Source of the DNA: a virus
Taxonomy: Duplodnaviria > Heunggongvirae > Uroviricota > Caudoviricetes
Length of the DNA: 44,652 bases
IMG/VR virus record: IMGVR_UViG_3300045988_039442
Coordinates: 1 to 44,652 of that record
Reading direction: 5' to 3' (one strand)
Shown: positions 2,190 to 44,071 of the stretch, in pieces
How the letters are laid out: every line of letters begins with the position of its first letter
Numbering within the stretch: the first letter of the stretch is position 1
The notes under the pieces: model-generated
Told to the model about the DNA's origin: nothing
The model's input: only the letters and a program-made list of their open reading frames with translations
The model's database searches: none
Program-made: the position numbers and the translations under genes

Positions 2190-2626
2190 CTACAATCGCG
2201 TTTGATGGAAAGACAATGGCCTGCGATACACGTGTTGTGTGCGGAAGTAACTGTTACAACACAGACACAAAGATATATGAGAATGATTTTGCTGTTATCG
2301 GGGTAGCGGGCGATGCGGGGGTAGGGGCTATGCTTATCGATTGCCCTGATATTCTTCAGGCAAAGCACTATGATTTTGATTTCGAAGCTCTGGTATTCGT
2401 GAAAGACACAGAAAAGGTGTATAAAGTCTCGTTTTATAAATCGTGGGATTGCGCACTTAGTTCGGTTATTCCGATTGCCGATAGCTTTGCCGCCGTTGGT
2501 TCCGGTTCTCCCTACGCACTGGCGGCCATGGAATGTGAATATTCAGCACATGGCGGTGTAGCCGTTGCATCGAAGTTTGACACTAACACCGGCGGCAAGA
2601 TTATTACCAAACAACTATTAGGATAA
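2186..2626 (+). CDS. HslV/proteasome beta-subunit-like Ntn-hydrolase peptidase homologue
   Basis: N-terminal MTTIAFDG (Thr at position 2 as candidate nucleophile), AVIGVAGDAG and GSGSPYALAA motifs resemble HslV; recalled from memory, not searched. Confidence 0.5.
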   Translation: MTTIAFDGKTMACDTRVVCGSNCYNTDTKIYENDFAVIGVAGDAGVGAMLIDCPDILQAKHYDFDFEALVFVKDTEKVYKVSFYKSWDCALSSVIPIADSFAAVGSGSPYALAAMECEYSAHGGVAVASKFDTNTGGKIITKQLLG

Positions 2627-2685
2627 TTCCTACCCGTGGTATCCTCCAGTTACTGCATACTTAATACGCACCTGGAGGATTCATC

Positions 2686-2994
2686 TTGGATAAATTTACT
2701 GAAACAGTGACAGGCTGGCTTCTCGCTGCCGCACTCGCCGGAGGGGTCATCGGACTACGACAACATAAGTCCGTTATTTCTGGCCCTATCGACGGCTTCT
2801 GCTTTATTGCAACTGGCTTCACCTGCGCCGTATTTGGCGCACCTCTCGCGGCTCAATGGTTCGGTATCACGGGCGACCGTGAAATCGCGGGCCTGGGCTT
2901 CATCATCGCGGTTCTCTGGATGCCTATCTATTCCCGTCTCTCCGGTATCGTCGCCGGAGAATACATCCCACGTCGAGGAGGCCCAGATGAATGA
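2686..2994 (+). CDS. putative holin (three predicted TM segments, charged C-terminus)
   Basis: TTG start 6 nt after GGAGGA; three hydrophobic helices; immediately upstream of the endolysin. Confidence 0.5.
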   Translation: MDKFTETVTGWLLAAALAGGVIGLRQHKSVISGPIDGFCFIATGFTCAVFGAPLAAQWFGITGDREIAGLGFIIAVLWMPIYSRLSGIVAGEYIPRRGGPDE

Positions 2995-3259
2995 GTTATT
3001 CTGGTTCGGCGGTATGCTGGCAATAGGGGGCACATCGCTGTTTAATGTATATCATCCCAGCGTGGATGACGGACTATTTGGTCGGGTGCTCTATATCCTG
3101 ACCGCTATCGTCTGCGCCGCCGGATGTATCCACCTGCTACAGGGCAGCATGTCGCCTACGCTGCCTGAGACATTAATCACATTAGTTGCGCTGCGTCAGA
3201 TTCGTCAGGCGTGGCTGTCATACGGAGGACATAAGCGTGTCTCGAAACATTTCAGATAA
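2987..3259 (+). CDS. small membrane protein, two TM segments (holin/antiholin-like partner)
   Basis: ATG at 2987 overlapping the holin stop; two hydrophobic segments; lies between holin and endolysin. Confidence 0.4.
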   Translation: MNELFWFGGMLAIGGTSLFNVYHPSVDDGLFGRVLYILTAIVCAAGCIHLLQGSMSPTLPETLITLVALRQIRQAWLSYGGHKRVSKHFR

Positions 3260-7546: not shown

Positions 7547-7771
7547 ATGGACCAACTAGCTATAGCTTTCACTGGCGTAATAGCCATCTTCCTTACCCAG
7601 CAATCCAACCAGAAGTGGAAGAGATTCGCTTGTTTGTTTGGAATTGCTGGGCAGCCTTTCTGGATTTATAGCGCGATAGTAAACCAGCAATGGGGTATTC
7701 TTGTGCTGTGCCTTTTCTACGCCTATAGCTGGGGGCTTGGCGTTTACAATAATTGGATTAAGAAGGCATAA
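7547..7771 (+). CDS. small integral membrane protein between terminase and portal
   Basis: ORF track entry; two or three hydrophobic helices. Confidence 0.45.
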   Translation: MDQLAIAFTGVIAIFLTQQSNQKWKRFACLFGIAGQPFWIYSAIVNQQWGILVLCLFYAYSWGLGVYNNWIKKA

Positions 7772-7815: not shown

Positions 7816-9285
7816 ATGTTAACTATGAACGGTCAGAATCAGGGTGTTAAGACAAAACACCGGGAATGGCTGCATCACTTCGATAAATGGCAGAAGGTGC
7901 GACACGCGCTGGAAGGCGACCTTATCCGCTATCTTCGCAACGTCGGGAAGAACGAGCCAGACCCAACCTACGCAGCGCAGCGCCAGGAAGAATACGAGAA
8001 CGGCGCTATCTGCTACAACTTCACTAAACGTACCCTGGCGGGGATGGTCGGTAGCGTCATGCGCAAAGACCCCGAACAGATTATTCCGCCTGAGATGGAG
8101 TACCTGCTACGTAATGCTGACGGTTCCGGTGTCGGGCTGTGGCAGCACGCGCAGGATACGCTGATGGAGATTGACTCGGTAGGTCGTGGCGGGTTGCTGG
8201 TTGATGCCCCAGAGACCGCCGCCGCGACGGCAGCCGAACAGAACGCAGGGTTATTAAACCCGGTCATCGCATTCTATACCGCAGAGAACATCATCAACTG
8301 GCGACTGACACGCGTAGGTTCAGTGAACCGTGTGACTATGGTCGTGCTGCGTGAGGCATGGGAATACTCAGAACCGGGTGCGGAGTTCGAAACCAAGTTT
8401 GGCGAGCAATACCGCGTCCTTGACCTGATTGACGGTCGCTACCGCCAGCGCATTTACCGCTTCGATGCCGAAGGCGGCGCTCAGGACGAAGTAATCGAAA
8501 TATTCCCGGAACTGGGCGAACAGTTGCGCGGTAAAATCCCATTTACGTTCATTGGTGCGAGCAACAACGATGCAACAATTGACGATGCACCTTTGCTGCC
8601 GTTGGCTGAGCTTAATATCGGGCATTTCCGTAACAGCGCAGACAATGAAGAGTCCAGCTTCGTGGTAGGCCAGCCTACTTTGTTCATTGCGCCGGGCGAG
8701 AACATGAGCATGGAACAGTGGAAAGAAGCCAACCCTCACGGCGTGCGTATGGGGTCGCGTTCAGGCCACAACATTGGTTACGGCGGCAATGCGTTTCTGG
8801 TTCAGGCGGGGGAGAACAACCTCGCTAAGCAGAACATGCTGGATAAAGAGAATCAGGCTATCCAGATTGGTGCGCAGCTTATCACCCCGACGCAGCAAAT
8901 CACCGCTGAATCGGCCAGACTGCAACGCGGTGCGGATACGTCAGTTATGGCGACAATCGCGCGGAACGTAAGCATGGCGTACACCGATGCGTTGCGCTGG
9001 GTGGCTGCGATGCTAGGGCTGCGTGAAGGCACAGAGATTGAGTTCAAGCTGAATATGGAGTTCTTCTTGCAACCGATGACCGCCCATGACCGTGCGCAGT
9101 GGATGGCAGACATTAATGCCGGTTTGCTGCCCGCCACTGCTTACTATGCAGCATTGCGTAAGGCTGGCGTAACTGACTGGACGGACGAGGACATTCAGAA
9201 CGCAATCGAGGATGCACCACTGCCGTTAGGTGCTGTTACTCAGGTGGAGGGGGAGATTCCGCAGTCGGCACAGCAACAGGAGTAG
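7816..9285 (+). CDS. portal protein
   Basis: 489-aa protein directly after the terminase genes; RBS AAGAGGA before the ATG. Confidence 0.8.
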   Translation: MLTMNGQNQGVKTKHREWLHHFDKWQKVRHALEGDLIRYLRNVGKNEPDPTYAAQRQEEYENGAICYNFTKRTLAGMVGSVMRKDPEQIIPPEMEYLLRNADGSGVGLWQHAQDTLMEIDSVGRGGLLVDAPETAAATAAEQNAGLLNPVIAFYTAENIINWRLTRVGSVNRVTMVVLREAWEYSEPGAEFETKFGEQYRVLDLIDGRYRQRIYRFDAEGGAQDEVIEIFPELGEQLRGKIPFTFIGASNNDATIDDAPLLPLAELNIGHFRNSADNEESSFVVGQPTLFIAPGENMSMEQWKEANPHGVRMGSRSGHNIGYGGNAFLVQAGENNLAKQNMLDKENQAIQIGAQLITPTQQITAESARLQRGADTSVMATIARNVSMAYTDALRWVAAMLGLREGTEIEFKLNMEFFLQPMTAHDRAQWMADINAGLLPATAYYAALRKAGVTDWTDEDIQNAIEDAPLPLGAVTQVEGEIPQSAQQQE

Positions 9286-9317
9286 CGAAAAAGGCCCCGT
9301 TATGGGGCCTTAGTTTT
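9286..9317. terminator. bidirectional hairpin terminator between convergent portal and DpdA-like genes
   Basis: AAGGCCCC-GTTAT-GGGGCCTT with flanking A and T tracts. Confidence 0.65.
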
Positions 9318-10034
9318 AAGTAGCCATTCCTCTACTGTAGGGGGTTTAACCATCTCTATGGTATGCCTCATTATGGCAGTTCGATGCAGTTTGTCCGTTA
9401 TGTCAGGTAGTCTTGCCTTAGTTTTCGGCACATTTATAGCTACGTTTGTGCTGTCAGCGCTGTCGAAAGGGTAGCGGCTCAAGGCCCGCCCATCCAGCAT
9501 TCTAAGGCCGTGGAGTTTTACATCCAATTTCCTGTTTCTATAAACCGCATTAAATGCCTGGTCCATTCTTTTCCCCCATGACTTAGACCGTATGGCCCTG
9601 TGCGGTCCGCAGCAACCTATCGCTACCCGATTGAACCCACGGCACAGTTTTACCAGTCTTCTTATACTTTCATCGCTGTGCCACACCGGGACCGCCTTAG
9701 ACCTTAACCAATCGGGGACAGTTTCTATTAATGCGTCGTTCTCTTCCTCCGTGCCCTCTATAACGTCCGGTATTATGAACCACTCAATACGACTGAACCA
9801 CTCTCCGACAAAATCATAATATCCTGCCCAGTGGGCGCTCCAGTCTATGTTGTCCGGTGCTTTCTTCCACGTCGAAAAAGCTCCGTTGTCCAACACTAAT
9901 TTACATCTCGTGGCGGCTATCTTTCGTATTTGATCGGGGCGGGCGTATGATACCAGAGCACCACCACCTCGGTACAATGCTTCTATAAGCTCATCCCCAC
10001 CCCAAATAGGGCCTCCGTGGTAATGCACTGTCAT
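9300..10034 (-). CDS. tRNA-guanine transglycosylase/DpdA-like protein (candidate 7-deazaguanine DNA base-exchange enzyme)
   Basis: LVLDNGAFS segment resembles the TGT catalytic-Asp region (LTDSGGFQ) and HGLRMLD a second Asp region; no CxCxxC zinc motif seen; assigned from memory of the fold, not by search. Confidence 0.4.
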   Translation of the reverse strand: MTVHYHGGPIWGGDELIEALYRGGGALVSYARPDQIRKIAATRCKLVLDNGAFSTWKKAPDNIDWSAHWAGYYDFVGEWFSRIEWFIIPDVIEGTEEENDALIETVPDWLRSKAVPVWHSDESIRRLVKLCRGFNRVAIGCCGPHRAIRSKSWGKRMDQAFNAVYRNRKLDVKLHGLRMLDGRALSRYPFDSADSTNVAINVPKTKARLPDITDKLHRTAIMRHTIEMVKPPTVEEWLLKTKAP

Positions 10035-10495
10035 TTAATTTTCCTCAGCAAGAACGACCATAAAGCTCCGCCAAAAACCTTAGCCACGAATTGGCCCAGT
10101 ACGACTAGCGGCATGAAGGCCCCGAAAGCTATTAGTGGGAAAATAAAAGAGTCCACCGCCGAGGCCGCTGTATTACTTACGTTTGACTTAACCAACCACT
10201 TTTTATTGATCAGTGCCTGGTAGACAACGGCATCTATGGCGGCTGCAAAAGCGAAGGCAACAACGCTTGCCATAGCAATCTTGCCGGTTGCCGGGTTTAT
10301 GGAGAAACTTATAATGCCAGTTACTAGTATCAGTATGAATATTTTTTGTACACCAATCCTCTCGTGCAACTTATCTCTTATTACGAAATCAAGCCCAATA
10401 AGTAGAAAGGCGTTTACCGGTGTCGCCCACGGACCAAACACAGTTACCGAAAAGTTAGCGGCGCATATCGCCGCTACGTAAATTGCATACATCAT
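10031..10495 (-). CDS. small polytopic membrane protein, possibly YhhQ/COG1738-type queuosine-precursor transporter
   Basis: Four to five TM helices; stop overlaps the start of the downstream DpdA-like gene (ATGA); SNVSNTAASAVDSFIFPLIAF resembles a DUF165 motif as I recall it. Confidence 0.35.
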   Translation of the reverse strand: MMYAIYVAAICAANFSVTVFGPWATPVNAFLLIGLDFVIRDKLHERIGVQKIFILILVTGIISFSINPATGKIAMASVVAFAFAAAIDAVVYQALINKKWLVKSNVSNTAASAVDSFIFPLIAFGAFMPLVVLGQFVAKVFGGALWSFLLRKIK

Positions 10496-10499
10496 CTTA

Positions 10500-10658
10500 T
10501 CACCCCCAGTTACGGGCAGCGTTTGCGGCTAGTGCAATCGTTTCTTCAAAAATGTAGTCTAGTTTAACAATCTGGCGCATTTTACGGCGGAACTTACGTT
10601 TGTCTCCGTTTTTCGAACTTAAATTAGTATTTACGGTAATTCTTTTTGCTAATTTCAT
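10500..10658 (-). CDS. small basic protein (52 aa), first gene of the leftward operon
   Basis: ATG at 10658 preceded by AGGAGACG; the same leader is found at 12463 and 43623. Confidence 0.4.
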   Translation of the reverse strand: MKLAKRITVNTNLSSKNGDKRKFRRKMRQIVKLDYIFEETIALAANAARNWG

Positions 10659-10682
10659 TTTTCGTCTCCTGTTTAAGTTAAC

Positions 10683-10714
10683 TGAATAGTACCCTATTAT
10701 ATTGGTGTCTGCAA
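10683..10714 (-). promoter_or_regulatory. conserved promoter/operator element, copy 1, leftward
   Basis: TGAATAGTACCCTATTATATTGGTGTCTGCAA; minus strand reads TTGCAGAC ... TATAAT; contains the AATAG-N4-CTATT palindrome. Confidence 0.55.
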
Positions 10715-10758
10715 TTATTATTTTTATGCGGTACACTGTCGATACTACAGGAGGGCTT

Positions 10759-11802
10759 ATGAGCTTACTTACATCCCTAATCAGCCACCAGATATGGCTG
10801 CAACGCGCCGCGTCCGGTGAGGTGAAAGACCTCGCGCCGTTCCTTCAGGAGATGAGGGACGAAATCAAACGGCAGGTGCTGTTATTCGGCGACGACGGGC
10901 GTAGCACCGCGCGACTGAATAAACTGTTACGCGACCTGGAAGAAGCACTGAGCGGACTTACAGGCGACTGGCAAACAAAGCTGACAGAAGACCTTAAGGA
11001 ACTAGCGGCGTATGAGGCGGAGTGGAATGTAAAAACGCTGACGGCTAGCGTTAACGCGGAATTTGTTACACCTACCGCTGAACAGGTGTGGTCCGCTGCC
11101 GAGTTTCAACCGCTCTCATTAAGCGACAAACCAGTTGATTTCACCAAGCTGATGTCGGGCTGGAGTGAAACAGAAGTCGCGCGCCTTGTAACCGGCGTTA
11201 AAATGGGTTTCGTACAAGGCCAAACCACACGGCAGATTGTTAAAAGCGTAGTCGGCGCTGGCGGACTGGCAGACATCTCGGAACGAAACGCAGCTACAGT
11301 AATACGTACTGCGCTGTCTCATGTGTCCAACGAAGCCCGTAACGAGACGTACCGCCAGAACGACGACATCATTGAGAAATACGAAATAGTCGCCACACTC
11401 GACAGCCGTACATCAACAATATGCCGTAGCCTGGACGGGCAGGAATACGAAATCGGCAAAGGTCCGAGACCCCCTTTCCATCCTAACTGCAGAACGACCA
11501 CTGCGCCCGTAATCAGTTCCGAGTTCGATTTCCTGGATAAAGGAGCGAAACGCGCAGCTAAGGGCGCAGAAGGCGGTACTCAGGTAAGCGCGGACACAAC
11601 CTATTACGAGTTCCTTAAACAACAACCGGCGTGGTTTCAGGATGAAGCGATCGGCCCGGTGCGGGGTAAGATTTTCCGCAACAGCGGTATATCGCCGGAA
11701 GAGTTTCGCGTAATATCTGTAGATGGTTTCGGGAATCCGCTCACGCTTAAGCAGATGGCGGAACTCGATAAACGTGTTGCTGATTATCTGAAAGGAGAAT
11801 AA
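10759..11802 (+). CDS. head morphogenesis protein (minor head protein, SPP1 gp7/Mu F-like)
   Basis: Position after the portal; about 348 aa; ATG at 10759 with RBS ACAGGAGGG. Confidence 0.6.
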   Translation: MSLLTSLISHQIWLQRAASGEVKDLAPFLQEMRDEIKRQVLLFGDDGRSTARLNKLLRDLEEALSGLTGDWQTKLTEDLKELAAYEAEWNVKTLTASVNAEFVTPTAEQVWSAAEFQPLSLSDKPVDFTKLMSGWSETEVARLVTGVKMGFVQGQTTRQIVKSVVGAGGLADISERNAATVIRTALSHVSNEARNETYRQNDDIIEKYEIVATLDSRTSTICRSLDGQEYEIGKGPRPPFHPNCRTTTAPVISSEFDFLDKGAKRAAKGAEGGTQVSADTTYYEFLKQQPAWFQDEAIGPVRGKIFRNSGISPEEFRVISVDGFGNPLTLKQMAELDKRVADYLKGE

Positions 11803-12263
11803 TGATGGGCTTTTTCAAAGTAACTGATGTTCCGTCACGTCGCGTAGTCCAGTACGCCCGCGTGTCTGGCTCTGGTGAGAACGCGGTGTTTATTGAAGAT
11901 GAAAGTGTACTAGGTACACCGGTAGACGATATGCCGTTTGCAGATAAAACCGGTATTGCACTGCCTGCGGCGGGTATGCTTTACGAGATTCCGTATCTGG
12001 AAGACGCGGGCGACGTGTATTTCTCTGTGCAACCGAAAGACGCGGAACTGGTAGACGGAAGCGCGGTAATCACGGTAGAAGTTAAGGCGGGTAAAGCTCC
12101 GTACGCTCTGACCTGGTACAAAGACGGGAAGGAAGTTGTCAACGCGCCAGAAGAGGCTTTATCTCTGACAGTAAACGCGGTTGGTGAATACTTCGTTAAA
12201 GTTACTGATGCTGATGGTGTAGAGGCCGTCAGTAAAGCGGCGAAGGTAACTAAGCCGGAATGA
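11802..12263 (+). CDS. hypothetical virion-associated protein with Ig-like segment
   Basis: ORF track entry; the WYKDGKEV stretch is Ig-like. Confidence 0.45.
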   Translation: MMGFFKVTDVPSRRVVQYARVSGSGENAVFIEDESVLGTPVDDMPFADKTGIALPAAGMLYEIPYLEDAGDVYFSVQPKDAELVDGSAVITVEVKAGKAPYALTWYKDGKEVVNAPEEALSLTVNAVGEYFVKVTDADGVEAVSKAAKVTKPE

Positions 12264-12290
12264 TAAAAGGCCCCGAAAGGGGCCTTAGCT
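12263..12290. terminator. bidirectional hairpin terminator
   Basis: AAGGCCCC-GAAA-GGGGCCTT. Confidence 0.6.
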
Positions 12291-12463
12291 TATACATCTC
12301 TACTCGCTAGATAATCGCAGCGGGCTATCGCTAAATATAAGCTAGCGTATGCGCTATCAGCTTTAGCATGGGTAAACCCAGAAATCATTACGTAGTACAC
12401 TCCTTTATCGTTTAGAACCCAGTATTTACCGTTTTCGTGCATTATGTCTTTTTCTTTGAACAT
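12290..12463 (-). CDS. hypothetical small protein (57 aa)
   Basis: ATG preceded by AGGAGA within the same conserved leader as at 10658; below the ORF-track cut-off. Confidence 0.4.
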   Translation of the reverse strand: MFKEKDIMHENGKYWVLNDKGVYYVMISGFTHAKADSAYASLYLAIARCDYLASRDV

Positions 12464-12487
12464 TTTTCATCTCCTGTTTAAGTTAAA

Positions 12488-12519
12488 TGAATAGTACCCT
12501 ATTATATTGGTGTCTGCAA
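12488..12519 (-). promoter_or_regulatory. conserved promoter/operator element, copy 2, leftward
   Basis: Identical over 32 bp to 10683-10714. Confidence 0.55.
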
Positions 12520-22358: not shown

Positions 22359-22390
22359 TGAATAGTACCCTATTATATTGGGGTGTGCAA
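22359..22390 (-). promoter_or_regulatory. conserved promoter/operator element, copy 3, leftward
   Basis: TGAATAGTACCCTATTATATTGGGGTGTGCAA; drives the four-gene leftward operon 22333 to 19760. Confidence 0.55.
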
Positions 22391-29528: not shown

Positions 29529-31367
29529 ATGTCAAGCGGATGCGGTGACGTTTTAAGCCTGGCGGATTTACAAACCGCCAAGAAACACCAGATTTTCGAA
29601 GCCGAGGTTATTACTGGTAAATCCGGAGGAGTCGCCGGCGGTGATAATATTGATTACGCGACCAACCAGGTTACAGGGCAGACACAGAAGACGCTCCCCG
29701 CCGTGTTGCGGGATGCATGTTTTTCTCCTGTATCTTGGGACTTTTCTACTGGCGGCACGCTAACCGTTAATGATCGGGACAAAGTGGTTTATGACCCGGT
29801 GGGCAAAACGTGGTACTCGTACGCGGGTACGTTGCCGGTTGTAGTCCCCGCAGCATTTAACCCGGTCGGTAACGCGGACTGGAAACCTCAGACAGACCAT
29901 GATTTACGCGAAGAATTATCCGAAATTGACGGAGAAAAATTAGTAGGAACTTGCCCCGATGTGGCTACACTGCGGACGATAGAACCAACCGTATCTAACC
30001 AAGTTATCACGGTACGAGGCTACTACTCTGACACGCCCGGGCTTGGGGGAGGAACGTTTATAGCCTTTTCCAGTTCTGAGGCAGATGACGGCGTGAATAT
30101 TTTTGTTACCCCCGGCGGTAAGCGCTGGAAGAGAACAGGAAGTCACATCGATATTCCGGTAGAGAACGGGGGCATGATGGCATCTCGTACACCGGAGCAA
30201 AACAGTGAAGCTCTTGAGCGTATTCATTCTTGCCTTCCACAGACTGGAGGTAAATTAAGATTTTCAGATTTTTATGATATTAAGTATGGAGCTATATGTC
30301 CGCCACGCGTCATGTGGGAGGGTATTGGTAGAGACTCATGCGGCTTACGTAAAACAGGTAACGATGTTAAAACCGTTCCAGACCGTATGTGGCAAGGCGC
30401 ACCCCATAGCTTCTCCCTGGATTTTATTGCTGCTATTGACATGGATAGTAGCGTGGCAGGCGACCTTACCGGAAACTTTAGCCGTTCCGGCTGTATTACT
30501 GGTATGAGTTTGATTGGTGCCGCTACTGCAAAAAATGCCTATGGTATTTATAGTGCAATAAGCTATATGGTTCGATTAGAAGACCTGTATATAGAAAACG
30601 TGATGACAGGGTACCGAACAAGTGATAGCTGGCTTCAGGTGTTTGATTCACTTATCATTAAAGATGTTCAAGATGGCATTTCTGTAGACACCGGCGGCAC
30701 AACTTTTAACTTAAATAACGTTTATGTCAGGAATGTATCCCGGTGGGCATATAAGTTTACTAACATTACTTATTCCAATCTTAAAGGTTGTGCAACGGAT
30801 TATGTAACTGGTTCCGCTTATGTGTTCTTAGGGTGCACTAGTGTAGTTATGGACGGCTGCGGGGCAGAAGAGATTCATGGTAGCCTCTTTGAGTGTAATC
30901 AATCTCGCTTATCTATTAATGCCTTTCGTAGTGTTAATCTCACAGATACGGGAAGTGTTGCCTGCATCTTTACTCAATGTGCAGTCACCATTACTGGTAG
31001 CTACCTGCCGGAGTTTGCTGGTTCACCTACTAGCAAATACTGGCAAGTTAATGACACTACCATTAACCTGATTAATACCGTTGCACCGGCAGCCTCCCGT
31101 GTGCTGTGGGCAGCAGGTGTTTCGCAGTTTAACTACTCAGACTGGGGAGGTAATTATACAATCTGGGGTACGTACACATGGACAGCTGCTGGTTACAAAA
31201 TTAACGGCATTGCGCATGTATACGGGGATGCTCCCCCTGATTCTTCAGTCACCCAATTCGGCAATGGTGCGCGATGGGAGCTTCTGACACCAGTTGCTGG
31301 GCGACCTTATAAATGGGTCCATGTTGGCTCTGGTGTGTGGAAGGTTGCTGGTAATGTAACTAGCTAA
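29529..31367 (+). CDS. tail fibre/tailspike with predicted right-handed beta-helix C-terminal domain
   Basis: 612 aa; the C-terminal part is rich in Gly/Ser/Thr/Asn/Tyr repeats typical of beta-helix receptor-binding or depolymerase domains; AT-richer from about 30.2 kb. Confidence 0.55.
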   Translation: MSSGCGDVLSLADLQTAKKHQIFEAEVITGKSGGVAGGDNIDYATNQVTGQTQKTLPAVLRDACFSPVSWDFSTGGTLTVNDRDKVVYDPVGKTWYSYAGTLPVVVPAAFNPVGNADWKPQTDHDLREELSEIDGEKLVGTCPDVATLRTIEPTVSNQVITVRGYYSDTPGLGGGTFIAFSSSEADDGVNIFVTPGGKRWKRTGSHIDIPVENGGMMASRTPEQNSEALERIHSCLPQTGGKLRFSDFYDIKYGAICPPRVMWEGIGRDSCGLRKTGNDVKTVPDRMWQGAPHSFSLDFIAAIDMDSSVAGDLTGNFSRSGCITGMSLIGAATAKNAYGIYSAISYMVRLEDLYIENVMTGYRTSDSWLQVFDSLIIKDVQDGISVDTGGTTFNLNNVYVRNVSRWAYKFTNITYSNLKGCATDYVTGSAYVFLGCTSVVMDGCGAEEIHGSLFECNQSRLSINAFRSVNLTDTGSVACIFTQCAVTITGSYLPEFAGSPTSKYWQVNDTTINLINTVAPAASRVLWAAGVSQFNYSDWGGNYTIWGTYTWTAAGYKINGIAHVYGDAPPDSSVTQFGNGARWELLTPVAGRPYKWVHVGSGVWKVAGNVTS

Positions 31368-44039: not shown

Positions 44040-44071
44040 TTGCACACCCCAATATAATAGGATACTATTCA
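44040..44071 (+). promoter_or_regulatory. conserved promoter/operator element, rightward copy driving the early block
   Basis: TTGCACACCCCAATATAATAGGATACTATTCA is the reverse complement of the 22359-22390 element; about 30 bp upstream of the RBS at 44091. Confidence 0.55.

What the first reader, a model, noticed from the sequence alone, without database searches (positions are those of the whole stretch)
9300..10714. Leftward accessory operon: DpdA-like transglycosylase plus YhhQ-like transporter (candidate 7-deazaguanine DNA modification)
A three-gene minus-strand operon (small basic protein, 4-5 TM protein, 244-aa enzyme) is inserted between the portal and head-morphogenesis genes and is driven by its own early-type promoter. 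The 244-aa protein has segments (LVLDNGAFS, HGLRMLD) that resemble the catalytic-Asp regions of tRNA-guanine transglycosylases, the fold used by phage DpdA enzymes to swap guanine in DNA for 7-deazaguanine bases. The adjacent membrane protein resembles the YhhQ/COG1738 preQ0/preQ1 transporter family. I see no queC/queD/queE/folE homologues in the window, so if the assignment holds the phage would rely on host or imported precursors. Both assignments are from memory of motifs, not from a search.
Basis: partly seen in the sequence, partly recalled or inferred. Interest (0 to 1): 0.8.

Follow-up and report, generated by a model that had tools for sequence, protein, structure and literature searches.

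The report
Phage DNA-guanine-swapping gene cassette
A coliphage of the Kagunavirus group carries a small mobile three-gene insert. It encodes an enzyme of the family that swaps guanine in DNA for a 7-deazaguanine base, plus a matching importer, which is a known anti-restriction trick seen here in a phage group where it had not been recorded.

Summary
Three co-oriented minus-strand genes lie between the portal gene and the head-morphogenesis gene. They are bounded by a promoter-like element (core 10683-10712) and a terminator hairpin (9291-9311).

- **154-aa protein (VUT/YhhQ family).** It scores above Pfam's Vut_1 cut-off but is not a YhhQ equivalog. The model has six helices and resembles ECF S-components.
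- **52-aa basic protein.** It travels with the other two genes and is of unknown function.
- **No preQ0 synthesis genes.** I found no folE, queC, queD or queE homologue in the window.

No related GenBank phage carries the cassette. Metagenome relatives carry it in either of two promoter-terminator slots.

DNA modification itself is unproven, and the nearest tested relative (phage 7-11) showed only trace dADG. This is a new member of a known kind and of moderate interest.

The parts
10656..10714 (-). Promoter-like element plus 5' leader and ribosome-binding site of the cassette. The core is 10683-10712: TTGCAG, a 17-nt spacer, then TACTAT, with an embedded TATAAT.
   Evidence: A 59-nt direct repeat at 12461-12519 is 97% identical. 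The 30-nt core occurs 4 times in the window against 0 expected, each copy 10-30 nt upstream of an RBS and ATG. The same element lies upstream of different cargo genes in fBC-Eco01 and phiWAO78-1. Promoter function is inferred; the generic sigma-70 scan did not score it.
10500..10658 (-). Gene for a 52-aa basic protein (pI 11.1) of unknown function; first gene of the cassette.
   Evidence: It is identical in L004 apart from a one-codon extension, with 5 synonymous and 0 non-synonymous differences. Homologues of 98% and 87% identity are always followed by the VUT and DpdA genes in metagenome contigs. A 55%-identical homologue lies directly upstream of VUT-DpdA in Flyfo siphovirus Tbat1_6. No Pfam, NCBIfam or PADLOC hit was found.
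10031..10495 (-). Gene for a 154-aa VUT-family (PF02592, COG1738/YhhQ-like) membrane protein; candidate 7-deazapurine importer.
9300..10034 (-). Gene for a 244-aa DpdA-type guanine transglycosylase (a minimal TIM barrel). Its start overlaps the VUT stop (ATGA).
9287..9316 (.). Terminator-like GC-rich hairpin (stem-loop 9291-9311) closing the cassette. It starts 6 nt after the portal stop codon and contains the dpdA stop codon in its loop.
   Evidence: The terminator scan finds 9 pairs, 6 of them G-C. A related hairpin at 12262-12291 closes the second slot. The same hairpin type closes the slot in fBC-Eco01 and in L004.
12262..12519 (-). Second promoter-terminator slot of the same design. Here it holds a 57-aa ORF (12290..12463). 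In related contigs this slot holds the DpdA cassette instead.
   Evidence: The repeats are shown. The cassette lies at this position in L004, L005 and L016-L019. The 57-aa ORF matches phrog_20712 at E 1.7e-25.
7816..9285 (+). Portal gene; left flank of the insertion site.
   Evidence: The ORF is listed. Its homologue in L004 hits PF13264 DUF4055. It is annotated as portal in related phages.
10759..11802 (+). Head-morphogenesis (Mu F / SPP1 gp7 family) gene; right flank of the insertion site.
   Evidence: The homologue in L004 is 347 aa and hits PF04233 Phage_Mu_F. An AGGAGG site precedes the ATG at 10759.

Best explanation
This is a 1.43-kb horizontally acquired accessory cassette (a 'moron') that sits in a leftward promoter-terminator slot inside the late-gene region of a Kagunavirus-like coliphage.

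It encodes three proteins: a minimal DpdA-type DNA guanine transglycosylase, a small six-helix VUT/YhhQ-family importer, and a 52-aa basic protein.

Proposed mechanism, all steps inferred:
1. The cassette is transcribed as one message from a phage promoter of the type that also heads the leftward DNA-metabolism operon.
2. The importer adds environmental preQ0 or preQ1 to the preQ0 that the E. coli host makes with FolE, QueD, QueE and QueC.
3. DpdA flips out selected guanines in replicated phage DNA. D194 acts as the nucleophile, forming a covalent sugar-enzyme intermediate. D49 acts as general acid/base. The 7-deazaguanine base is then inserted.
4. The modified DNA resists restriction enzymes whose sites contain the modified G.

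Because the phage makes no precursor itself, the level of modification should depend on host queuosine metabolism and on the medium.
For: **Family assignments.**
- The DpdA assignment rests. The VUT assignment rests.
- Active-site residues match those shown to be essential in bacterial DpdA (Asp95, Phe99, Asp130, His181, Asp256; PMC10164549). The candidates here are D49, F53, D90, H119 and D194, conserved in 47-48 of 48 family members.

**Evidence that the genes function together.**
- The VUT and dpdA genes overlap or abut in this order on at least six unrelated phage backbones: PEAT2, Tbat1_6, ECO111 5-P, L006, L007 and AB3P2.
- All three genes are under purifying selection.

**Precursor supply and precedent.**
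- No FolE, QueD, QueE or QueC homologue is present in the window.
- The 9g DpdA expressed alone in E. coli puts dPreQ0 into plasmid DNA using host preQ0 (PMC6884629).
- CAjan folE and queC mutants still incorporate host-derived preQ0, at about 12-fold lower level (PMC7544227).

**Cassette character.**
- GC content is 46.4% against 50.9% for the window.
- The cassette is bounded by a promoter and a terminator.
- It is absent from all 185 related GenBank records.
- It is found in two alternative slots in metagenome relatives.
Against: - No chemical evidence is available for this phage.
- The closest relative whose DNA was analysed is Salmonella phage 7-11 (60% identical DpdA, no transporter). 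It had only 50 dADG per 10^6 nt, about 0.02% of its G, and no dPreQ0.
- Deleting yhhQ in CAjan did not change modification.
- The transporter scores far below NCBIfam's YhhQ equivalog cut-offs, so its substrate is inferred from gene neighbourhood.
- The equivalent of the base-recognition Asp is ambiguous in the pairwise alignment with CAjan DpdA, where D90 aligns to Ser.
Confidence: 0.6

Rival explanations
1. The enzymes are what they appear to be, but modification is trace-level or conditional, as in phage 7-11. The cassette would then give little general restriction protection. Its benefit, if any, would be limited to particular hosts, media or a few specific sites, and it is gained and lost easily.
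For: Phage 7-11 (60% identical DpdA) has about 0.02% of its G modified. Bacterial DpdA and DpdA2 enzymes modify less than 0.1% of G (PMC10516641). The cassette is patchily distributed among close relatives. Host glycosylases that attack 7-deazaguanine DNA impose a cost, and phages escape them by dpdA mutation (bioRxiv 10.1101/2025.10.29.685425).
Against: Purifying selection on all three genes is strong. The family is abundant, with 670 DpdA homologues at E below 1e-5. Unlike 7-11, this phage also carries an importer that could raise precursor supply.
Confidence: 0.2
2. The enzyme acts on RNA, or on host queuosine metabolism, rather than on phage DNA. The pair would be an auxiliary metabolic module that imports queuosine precursors and alters tRNA modification to favour phage translation.
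For: Database labels call the protein 'queuine tRNA-ribosyltransferase'. TGT-superfamily members act on tRNA. Hutinet et al. suggested that phages carrying Q-pathway genes without DpdA may boost Q precursor supply.
Against: There is no match to Pfam TGT, and the protein has no zinc subdomain or RNA-binding (PUA-type) extension; it ends at residue 244. The nearest validated homologue (CAjan DpdA) and the best structural match (7UI4) both act on DNA. The E. coli host already has its own Tgt and YhhQ (established knowledge).
Confidence: 0.08
3. The pair inserts a different base from preQ0, for example preQ1, queuine, CDG or another imported purine analogue. This would give a modification not predicted from the DpdA1 precedent.
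For: Substrate switching is documented: VH7D DpdA2 prefers preQ1 and also accepts preQ0 and CDG (PMC10516641). The transporter is not a YhhQ equivalog. Its fold class, ECF S-component-like, binds many different small molecules. Phage 7-11 DNA carried dADG rather than dPreQ0.
Against: All DpdA1-type enzymes tested so far insert preQ0. No modifying enzyme (QueF, ArcS, Gat-QueC, DpdC) was detected among the larger ORFs.
Confidence: 0.1

Closest known systems
'DpdA-only' phages of Hutinet et al. 2019 (group 3: Salmonella phage 7-11, Escherichia phage HK106, Pectobacterium phage PEAT2, SE131, SEN1, BTP1)
   Same: The DpdA belongs to the same clade, at 60-66% identity. These phages also have no preQ0 synthesis genes and presumably rely on host or imported precursor. 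PEAT2 has the same overlapping VUT-dpdA pair, at 72% and 66% identity.
   Different: The backbone differs: this is a Kagunavirus of the Guernseyvirinae, with no such record in the GenBank phage collection. The location differs: inside the late structural region in a promoter-terminator slot, not in the replication or early region. An extra 52-aa basic protein gene is present.
Escherichia phage CAjan / 9g (Queuovirinae) 7-deazaguanine cluster
   Same: They carry a homologous DpdA (22% identity, hhalign probability 93%) and a homologous short VUT protein of 159 aa (28% identity). Both infect E. coli. CAjan DpdA is genetically required for dPreQ0 in DNA.
   Different: CAjan and 9g encode the whole preQ0 pathway (FolE, QueD, QueE, and QueC or Gat-QueC) in a 12-gene cluster and modify 25-32% of their G. 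This phage has only the insertion enzyme and the importer.
Bacterial DpdA of the Dpd restriction-modification system (PDB 7UI4)
   Different: Bacterial DpdA is 413 aa and needs the ATPase DpdB. This protein is 244 aa, with only 14% identity. No DpdB or ParB-like gene is adjacent, and the PADLOC DpdA model does not hit it.
E. coli YhhQ (queuosine precursor transporter, COG1738/PF02592)
   Same: They share the Pfam family. The alignment runs from the N-terminus through YhhQ residue 163, with shared Asp-containing motifs.
   Different: This protein is 154 aa against 221 aa for YhhQ. It scores far below the equivalog cut-offs: 21.4 against 252 bits, and 25.8 against 50.95 bits. Its substrate is untested.

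Membership tests
Phage DpdA (DNA guanine transglycosylase, TGT superfamily) | Detectable homology to an experimentally validated DpdA | tested here: met
   The family profile against CAjan DpdA gives hhalign probability 93.4%, E 2.6e-7, over 193 columns. BLASTP gives E 6e-7. The protein is 60-66% identical to proteins catalogued as DpdA in PMC6884629 Supplementary Data 1.
Phage DpdA (DNA guanine transglycosylase, TGT superfamily) | TGT-like (beta/alpha)8 barrel fold | tested here: met
   [not shown]
Phage DpdA (DNA guanine transglycosylase, TGT superfamily) | Catalytic general acid/base Asp followed four residues later by a stacking Phe, plus a nucleophile Asp | tested here: met
   D49-x3-F53 (LDNGAFS) aligns to CAjan LDSGAFS. 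D194 (DS) aligns to CAjan CDSSS. D49 and F53 are present in 47 of 48 sequences and D194 in 48 of 48. The pattern matches Asp95, Phe99 and Asp256 of bacterial DpdA. No structural superposition was inspected.
Phage DpdA (DNA guanine transglycosylase, TGT superfamily) | Base-recognition Asp (and His) on the Watson-Crick edge | tested here: inconclusive
   D90 and H119 are invariant in the clade, in an order and spacing like Asp130 and His181 of bacterial DpdA. However, D90 aligns to Ser in the pairwise alignment with CAjan DpdA, whose Asp lies three residues further on.
Phage DpdA (DNA guanine transglycosylase, TGT superfamily) | Inserts a 7-deazaguanine base into DNA | not testable with these tools
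   This needs LC-MS/MS of virion DNA or an in-vitro exchange assay. The nearest tested relative, 7-11, had trace dADG only.
Canonical tRNA-guanine transglycosylase (Pfam TGT PF01702) | Match to the Pfam TGT model | tested here: not met
   No Pfam, NCBIfam or PDB-sequence hit was found, even with the family profile. The validated CAjan DpdA also has none, so this excludes canonical TGT but not DpdA.
Canonical tRNA-guanine transglycosylase (Pfam TGT PF01702) | C-terminal zinc-binding subdomain (Cys cluster plus His) | tested here: not met
   The protein ends at residue 244. Its only Cys pair (C141, C142) is variable, present in 27 and 33 of 48 sequences. CAjan DpdA likewise has no Cys cluster. 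That TGT has such a subdomain is from established knowledge.
VUT / YhhQ family (PF02592, COG1738) | Match to Pfam Vut_1 above the gathering score | tested here: met
   The score is 38.1 bits against a cut-off of 27.2, but it covers only profile positions 62-140 of 152. All 120 listed homologues carry PF02592.
VUT / YhhQ family (PF02592, COG1738) | Equivalog of E. coli YhhQ (NCBIfam NF008406 / TIGR00697 cut-offs) | tested here: not met
   Scores are 21.4 against 252 bits and 25.8 against 50.95 bits. The protein is a family member, not an orthologue.
VUT / YhhQ family (PF02592, COG1738) | Polytopic inner-membrane protein | tested here: met
   [not shown]
VUT / YhhQ family (PF02592, COG1738) | Transports preQ0 or preQ1 | not testable with these tools
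   This is inferred only from the conserved overlap with dpdA and from E. coli YhhQ (Zallot et al. 2017, cited).
Phage 'moron' (autonomous accessory transcription unit in a late operon) | Own promoter and terminator, inserted between two backbone genes that are adjacent in relatives, with deviant composition | tested here: met
   The portal and head genes are 36 nt apart in K1ind3 and adjacent in L004. A promoter-like element and a hairpin bound the insert. GC content is 46.4% against 50.9%. Promoter and terminator activity are inferred.

The most novel reading that the evidence does not exclude
The three genes form a self-sufficient salvage module. On this reading it gives substantial, environment-dependent 7-deazaguanine modification without any biosynthetic gene. 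The conserved 52-aa basic protein would be a new DNA-binding accessory or specificity factor for the minimal DpdA, playing the part that the ATPase DpdB plays for bacterial DpdA. The two promoter-terminator slots would let the module be swapped in and out by recombination as host defences change between restriction enzymes and deazaguanine-specific glycosylases.
Probability: 0.12. Interest if true: 0.6.

Novelty: new member of a known kind. Interest (0 to 1): 0.4.

Why it matters
- **An open question since 2019.** The largest group of DpdA phages, those with DpdA but no precursor pathway, has had unknown modification status since 2019. The one enterobacterial example examined gave only trace dADG.
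- **A tractable test system.** This phage is a small lytic coliphage. Close relatives lack the cassette, and others carry the same cassette at a different position. The host's queuosine genes are all known and deletable. It would show directly whether DpdA plus an importer is enough for protective DNA modification, and how far this depends on host metabolism or medium.
- **Practical consequences.** Kagunaviruses are used as K1-capsule and therapeutic phage candidates. An unnoticed DNA modification would affect host range, sequencing and restriction mapping.

Tried and rejected
- **Sequence searches with no result for the 244-aa protein.** Pfam, NCBIfam and PADLOC scans and phmmer/hmmsearch against PDB sequences gave nothing. 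This was uninformative, because the validated CAjan DpdA is equally invisible to Pfam and PDB searches.
- **afdb50 library.** It was not available for the transporter model.
- **Second weak tblastn match of CAjan DpdA.** The match at 30087-30392 (E 0.023) lies inside the 612-aa tail-spike-like ORF, and I rejected it as chance.
- **Generic sigma-70 scan.**
  - It did not score the conserved 30-nt element.
  - It flagged instead a junction-spanning site, TCGACA-17-AATAAT at 10742-10714. Its -35 half lies outside the region shared with the L004 copy, so I do not rely on it.
- **Search with the 52-aa protein.** It found only very close relatives, so its family remains undefined.
- **D191 as nucleophile.** I considered D191 (FDSA, resembling the archaeal TGT motif as I remember it). 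I rejected it because it is replaced by Ala, His or Tyr in 19 of 48 homologues, whereas D194 is invariant.
Full report
**What the window is.** The 44.65-kb window is a Kagunavirus-like (Guernseyvirinae) siphophage genome. The first 25 kb match Escherichia phages EF2-1, BUCT825, hz69 and others at about 89-90% nucleotide identity. The non-structural genes I scanned are ordinary for this backbone. They include an SNF2 helicase, VRR-NUC, family A DNA polymerase, ssDNA-binding protein, DUF2800/PD-(D/E)XK nuclease, primase-helicase-type AAA_25 protein, lysozyme, HAD phosphatase and phosphoesterase.

**The observation.** Three co-oriented minus-strand ORFs lie between the portal gene (7816..9285) and the Mu-F-type head-morphogenesis gene.
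- The 244-aa ORF (9300..10034) overlaps the stop of the 154-aa ORF (10031..10495) by ATGA.
- The 154-aa ORF starts 4 nt after the stop of the small ORF.
- The small ORF most likely starts at the ATG at 10658, giving 52 aa with pI 11.1. The mechanical ORF list starts it at the GTG at 10736, but homologues are called at 53 aa and an AGGAG site precedes that ATG.
- The head gene most likely starts at the ATG at 10759, behind AGGAGG.

**The unit is a discrete insert.**
- A 2-kb query across the site matched 185 related phage records only through its flanks. None covered 80% of it.
- In K1ind3 the portal and head genes are 36 nt apart.
- In fBC-Eco01 and phiWAO78-1 the same junction holds other minus-strand cargo.
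- Alignment with a metagenome contig that carries a 96%-identical copy puts the limits of shared sequence at about 10714 and 9288.
- The insert has 46.4% GC against 50.9% for the window, which places it in the lowest 4% of equal-sized windows.

**Promoter and terminator slots.**
- The insert begins with a 59-nt promoter-leader (10656-10714). This is repeated at 97% identity at 12461-12519.
- The insert ends with a GC-rich hairpin (9291-9311). A related copy lies at 12262-12291.
- The 30-nt promoter core occurs four times in the window against none expected. Each copy has TTGCA(G/C), a 17-nt spacer containing TATAAT, then TACTAT. Each lies shortly upstream of an RBS and ATG.
- One copy heads the leftward phosphoesterase/HAD-phosphatase operon.
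- The same promoter and hairpin bracket unrelated cargo in fBC-Eco01 and phiWAO78-1.
- The genome therefore has two leftward promoter-terminator slots in its late region. The window carries the cassette in slot 1 and a 57-aa ORF of unknown function in slot 2.
- Contigs L014 and L015 match the window's arrangement. L004, L005 and L016-L019 carry the cassette in slot 2 and have an empty slot 1.
- Recombination between the shared promoter and terminator sequences is a simple explanation for this relocation. That is my inference.

**The 244-aa protein.**
- *No hits in curated libraries.* Pfam, NCBIfam, PADLOC and PDB sequence searches find nothing, even with a 48-sequence profile. The genetically validated CAjan DpdA is also invisible to Pfam and PDB sequence searches, so this silence does not count against the assignment.
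- *Sequence homology.*
  - PHROG 887 ('queuine tRNA-ribosyltransferase') matches at E 2.9e-84.
  - tBLASTn finds 66% identity to PEAT2, 64% to HK106 and 60% to Salmonella phage 7-11. All of these are in the DpdA column of Supplementary Data 1 of Hutinet et al. 2019.
  - The family profile aligns to CAjan DpdA with hhalign probability 93.4% and E 2.6e-7 over 193 columns.
- *Structure.* The AlphaFold model (pLDDT 93.2) is a (beta/alpha)8 barrel.
  - Cap10, bacterial TGT, archaeal TGT and QTRT2 are also in the top 15.
  - Unrelated barrels follow closely, and Foldseek did not discriminate.
- *Active site.* The residues proposed or shown to matter in bacterial DpdA are Asp95, Phe99, Asp130, His181 and Asp256.
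  - Plausible counterparts here are D49, F53, D90, H119 and D194. They are conserved in 47, 47, 48, 48 and 48 of 48 homologues.
  - D49/F53 and D194 align directly to LDSGAFS and CDSSS of CAjan DpdA.
  - The D90 equivalence is ambiguous in that alignment.
It is more likely clade-specific than catalytic.
- *No zinc subdomain.* There is no conserved Cys cluster and no C-terminal extension. The same is true of CAjan DpdA.

**The 154-aa protein.**
- *Family match.* It passes Pfam's Vut_1 threshold, at 38.1 against 27.2 bits. It is 28% identical to the 159-aa 'preQ0 transporter' of CAjan. It aligns to E. coli YhhQ residues 15-163.
- *Not an orthologue.* It is far below NCBIfam's YhhQ equivalog thresholds.
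- *Link to 7-deazapurines.* The link is by gene neighbourhood. The VUT gene immediately precedes, and usually overlaps, dpdA in PEAT2, Tbat1_6, ECO111 5-P, AB3P2, L006 and L007, which have unrelated backbones.

**The 52-aa protein.** It has no family assignment. It is a real gene.
- The window and L004 copies differ by five synonymous and no non-synonymous changes.
- Copies of 98% and 87% identity always precede VUT-DpdA.
- A 55%-identical homologue holds the same position in Flyfo siphovirus Tbat1_6.
- It is absent from PEAT2-type arrangements, so it is not obligatory for the pair.

**No precursor genes.** tBLASTn with CAjan FolE, QueD, QueE, QueC and the unassigned cluster genes found nothing better than E 0.12 in the window. 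Pfam scans of 20 further ORFs showed no Que-pathway family.

**Mechanism and its limits.**
- *Proposed reading.* This is a salvage-type 7-deazaguanine DNA-modification module. The importer and the host pathway supply preQ0 (or preQ1), and DpdA exchanges it for guanine in phage DNA by the TGT double-displacement mechanism. Restriction evasion would be the benefit.
- *Precedent.* 9g DpdA expressed alone modifies plasmids in E. coli using host preQ0. CAjan folE and queC mutants still incorporate host-derived preQ0 at a lower level.
- *Evidence against a strong effect.*
  - Phage 7-11 DNA carries only about 0.02% dADG.
  - CAjan's yhhQ deletion has no phenotype.
  - Host glycosylases that attack deazaguanine DNA select for loss of dpdA function. 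This may explain the patchy distribution.
- *Confidence.* I put 0.6 on real, functionally relevant DNA modification and about 0.9 on the two family assignments.

**Novelty.** DpdA-only phages, some with YhhQ homologues, were described in 2019, so this is a new member of a known kind. Three details are new.
- The host lineage: no Kagunavirus in the GenBank phage collection carries the cassette.
- The slot architecture and the relocation of the cassette between slots.
- The associated 52-aa gene.

Interest is moderate (0.4). Its main value is as a tractable E. coli system for the unresolved question of what DpdA-only phages actually do to their DNA.

Noticed in passing
window 10683-10712(-), 12488-12517(-), 22359-22388(-), 44042-44071(+): A 30-nt promoter-like element, TTGCA(G/C)AC(A/C)CCAATATAATAGG(G/A)TACTATTCA, occurs four times against 0 expected. 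Each copy lies 10-30 nt upstream of an RBS and ATG. It looks like the phage's own early or middle promoter type, and the generic sigma-70 scan misses it.
   Followed up: partly
window 12262-12519: A second leftward promoter-terminator slot lies between the Ig-like 153-aa gene and the 128-aa gene. It holds a 57-aa ORF (12290..12463, phrog_20712, unknown function). In six metagenome relatives this slot holds the DpdA cassette instead.
   Followed up: partly
window 7547-7771 (+): A 74-aa hydrophobic ORF sits between the terminase large subunit and the portal gene. It weakly matches phrog_22312 ('membrane protein', moron category, E 5e-6). In L004 the terminase and portal genes are adjacent, so this looks like another small insert.
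   Followed up: partly
L011 (fBC-Eco01) 1317-1838; L014 1952-2473: The 173-aa slot cargo annotated 'DNA polymerase III sliding clamp' in fBC-Eco01 scores best against PHROG 3007 (labelled RusA-like resolvase, E 3.6e-36). Its match to the Pfam beta-clamp domain is only weak (E 0.006). An ORF of the same size fills slot 2 of L014; I did not compare the two sequences.
   Followed up: partly
L014 2963-4900; L015 6-1943: In the two metagenome contigs with the cassette in slot 1, the Mu-F-like head-morphogenesis product is called at 645 aa, against 347 aa here and in L004. This may be a fusion or an extension.
   Followed up: no
L001 (PEAT2) 2537-3004: Hutinet et al. 2019 Supplementary Data 1 lists PEAT2 with a DpdA but an empty YhhQ column. 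RefSeq annotates a VUT family protein overlapping its dpdA (72% identical to the one here). Short phage VUT proteins may therefore be under-counted in that survey.
   Followed up: partly
[not shown]
   Followed up: no
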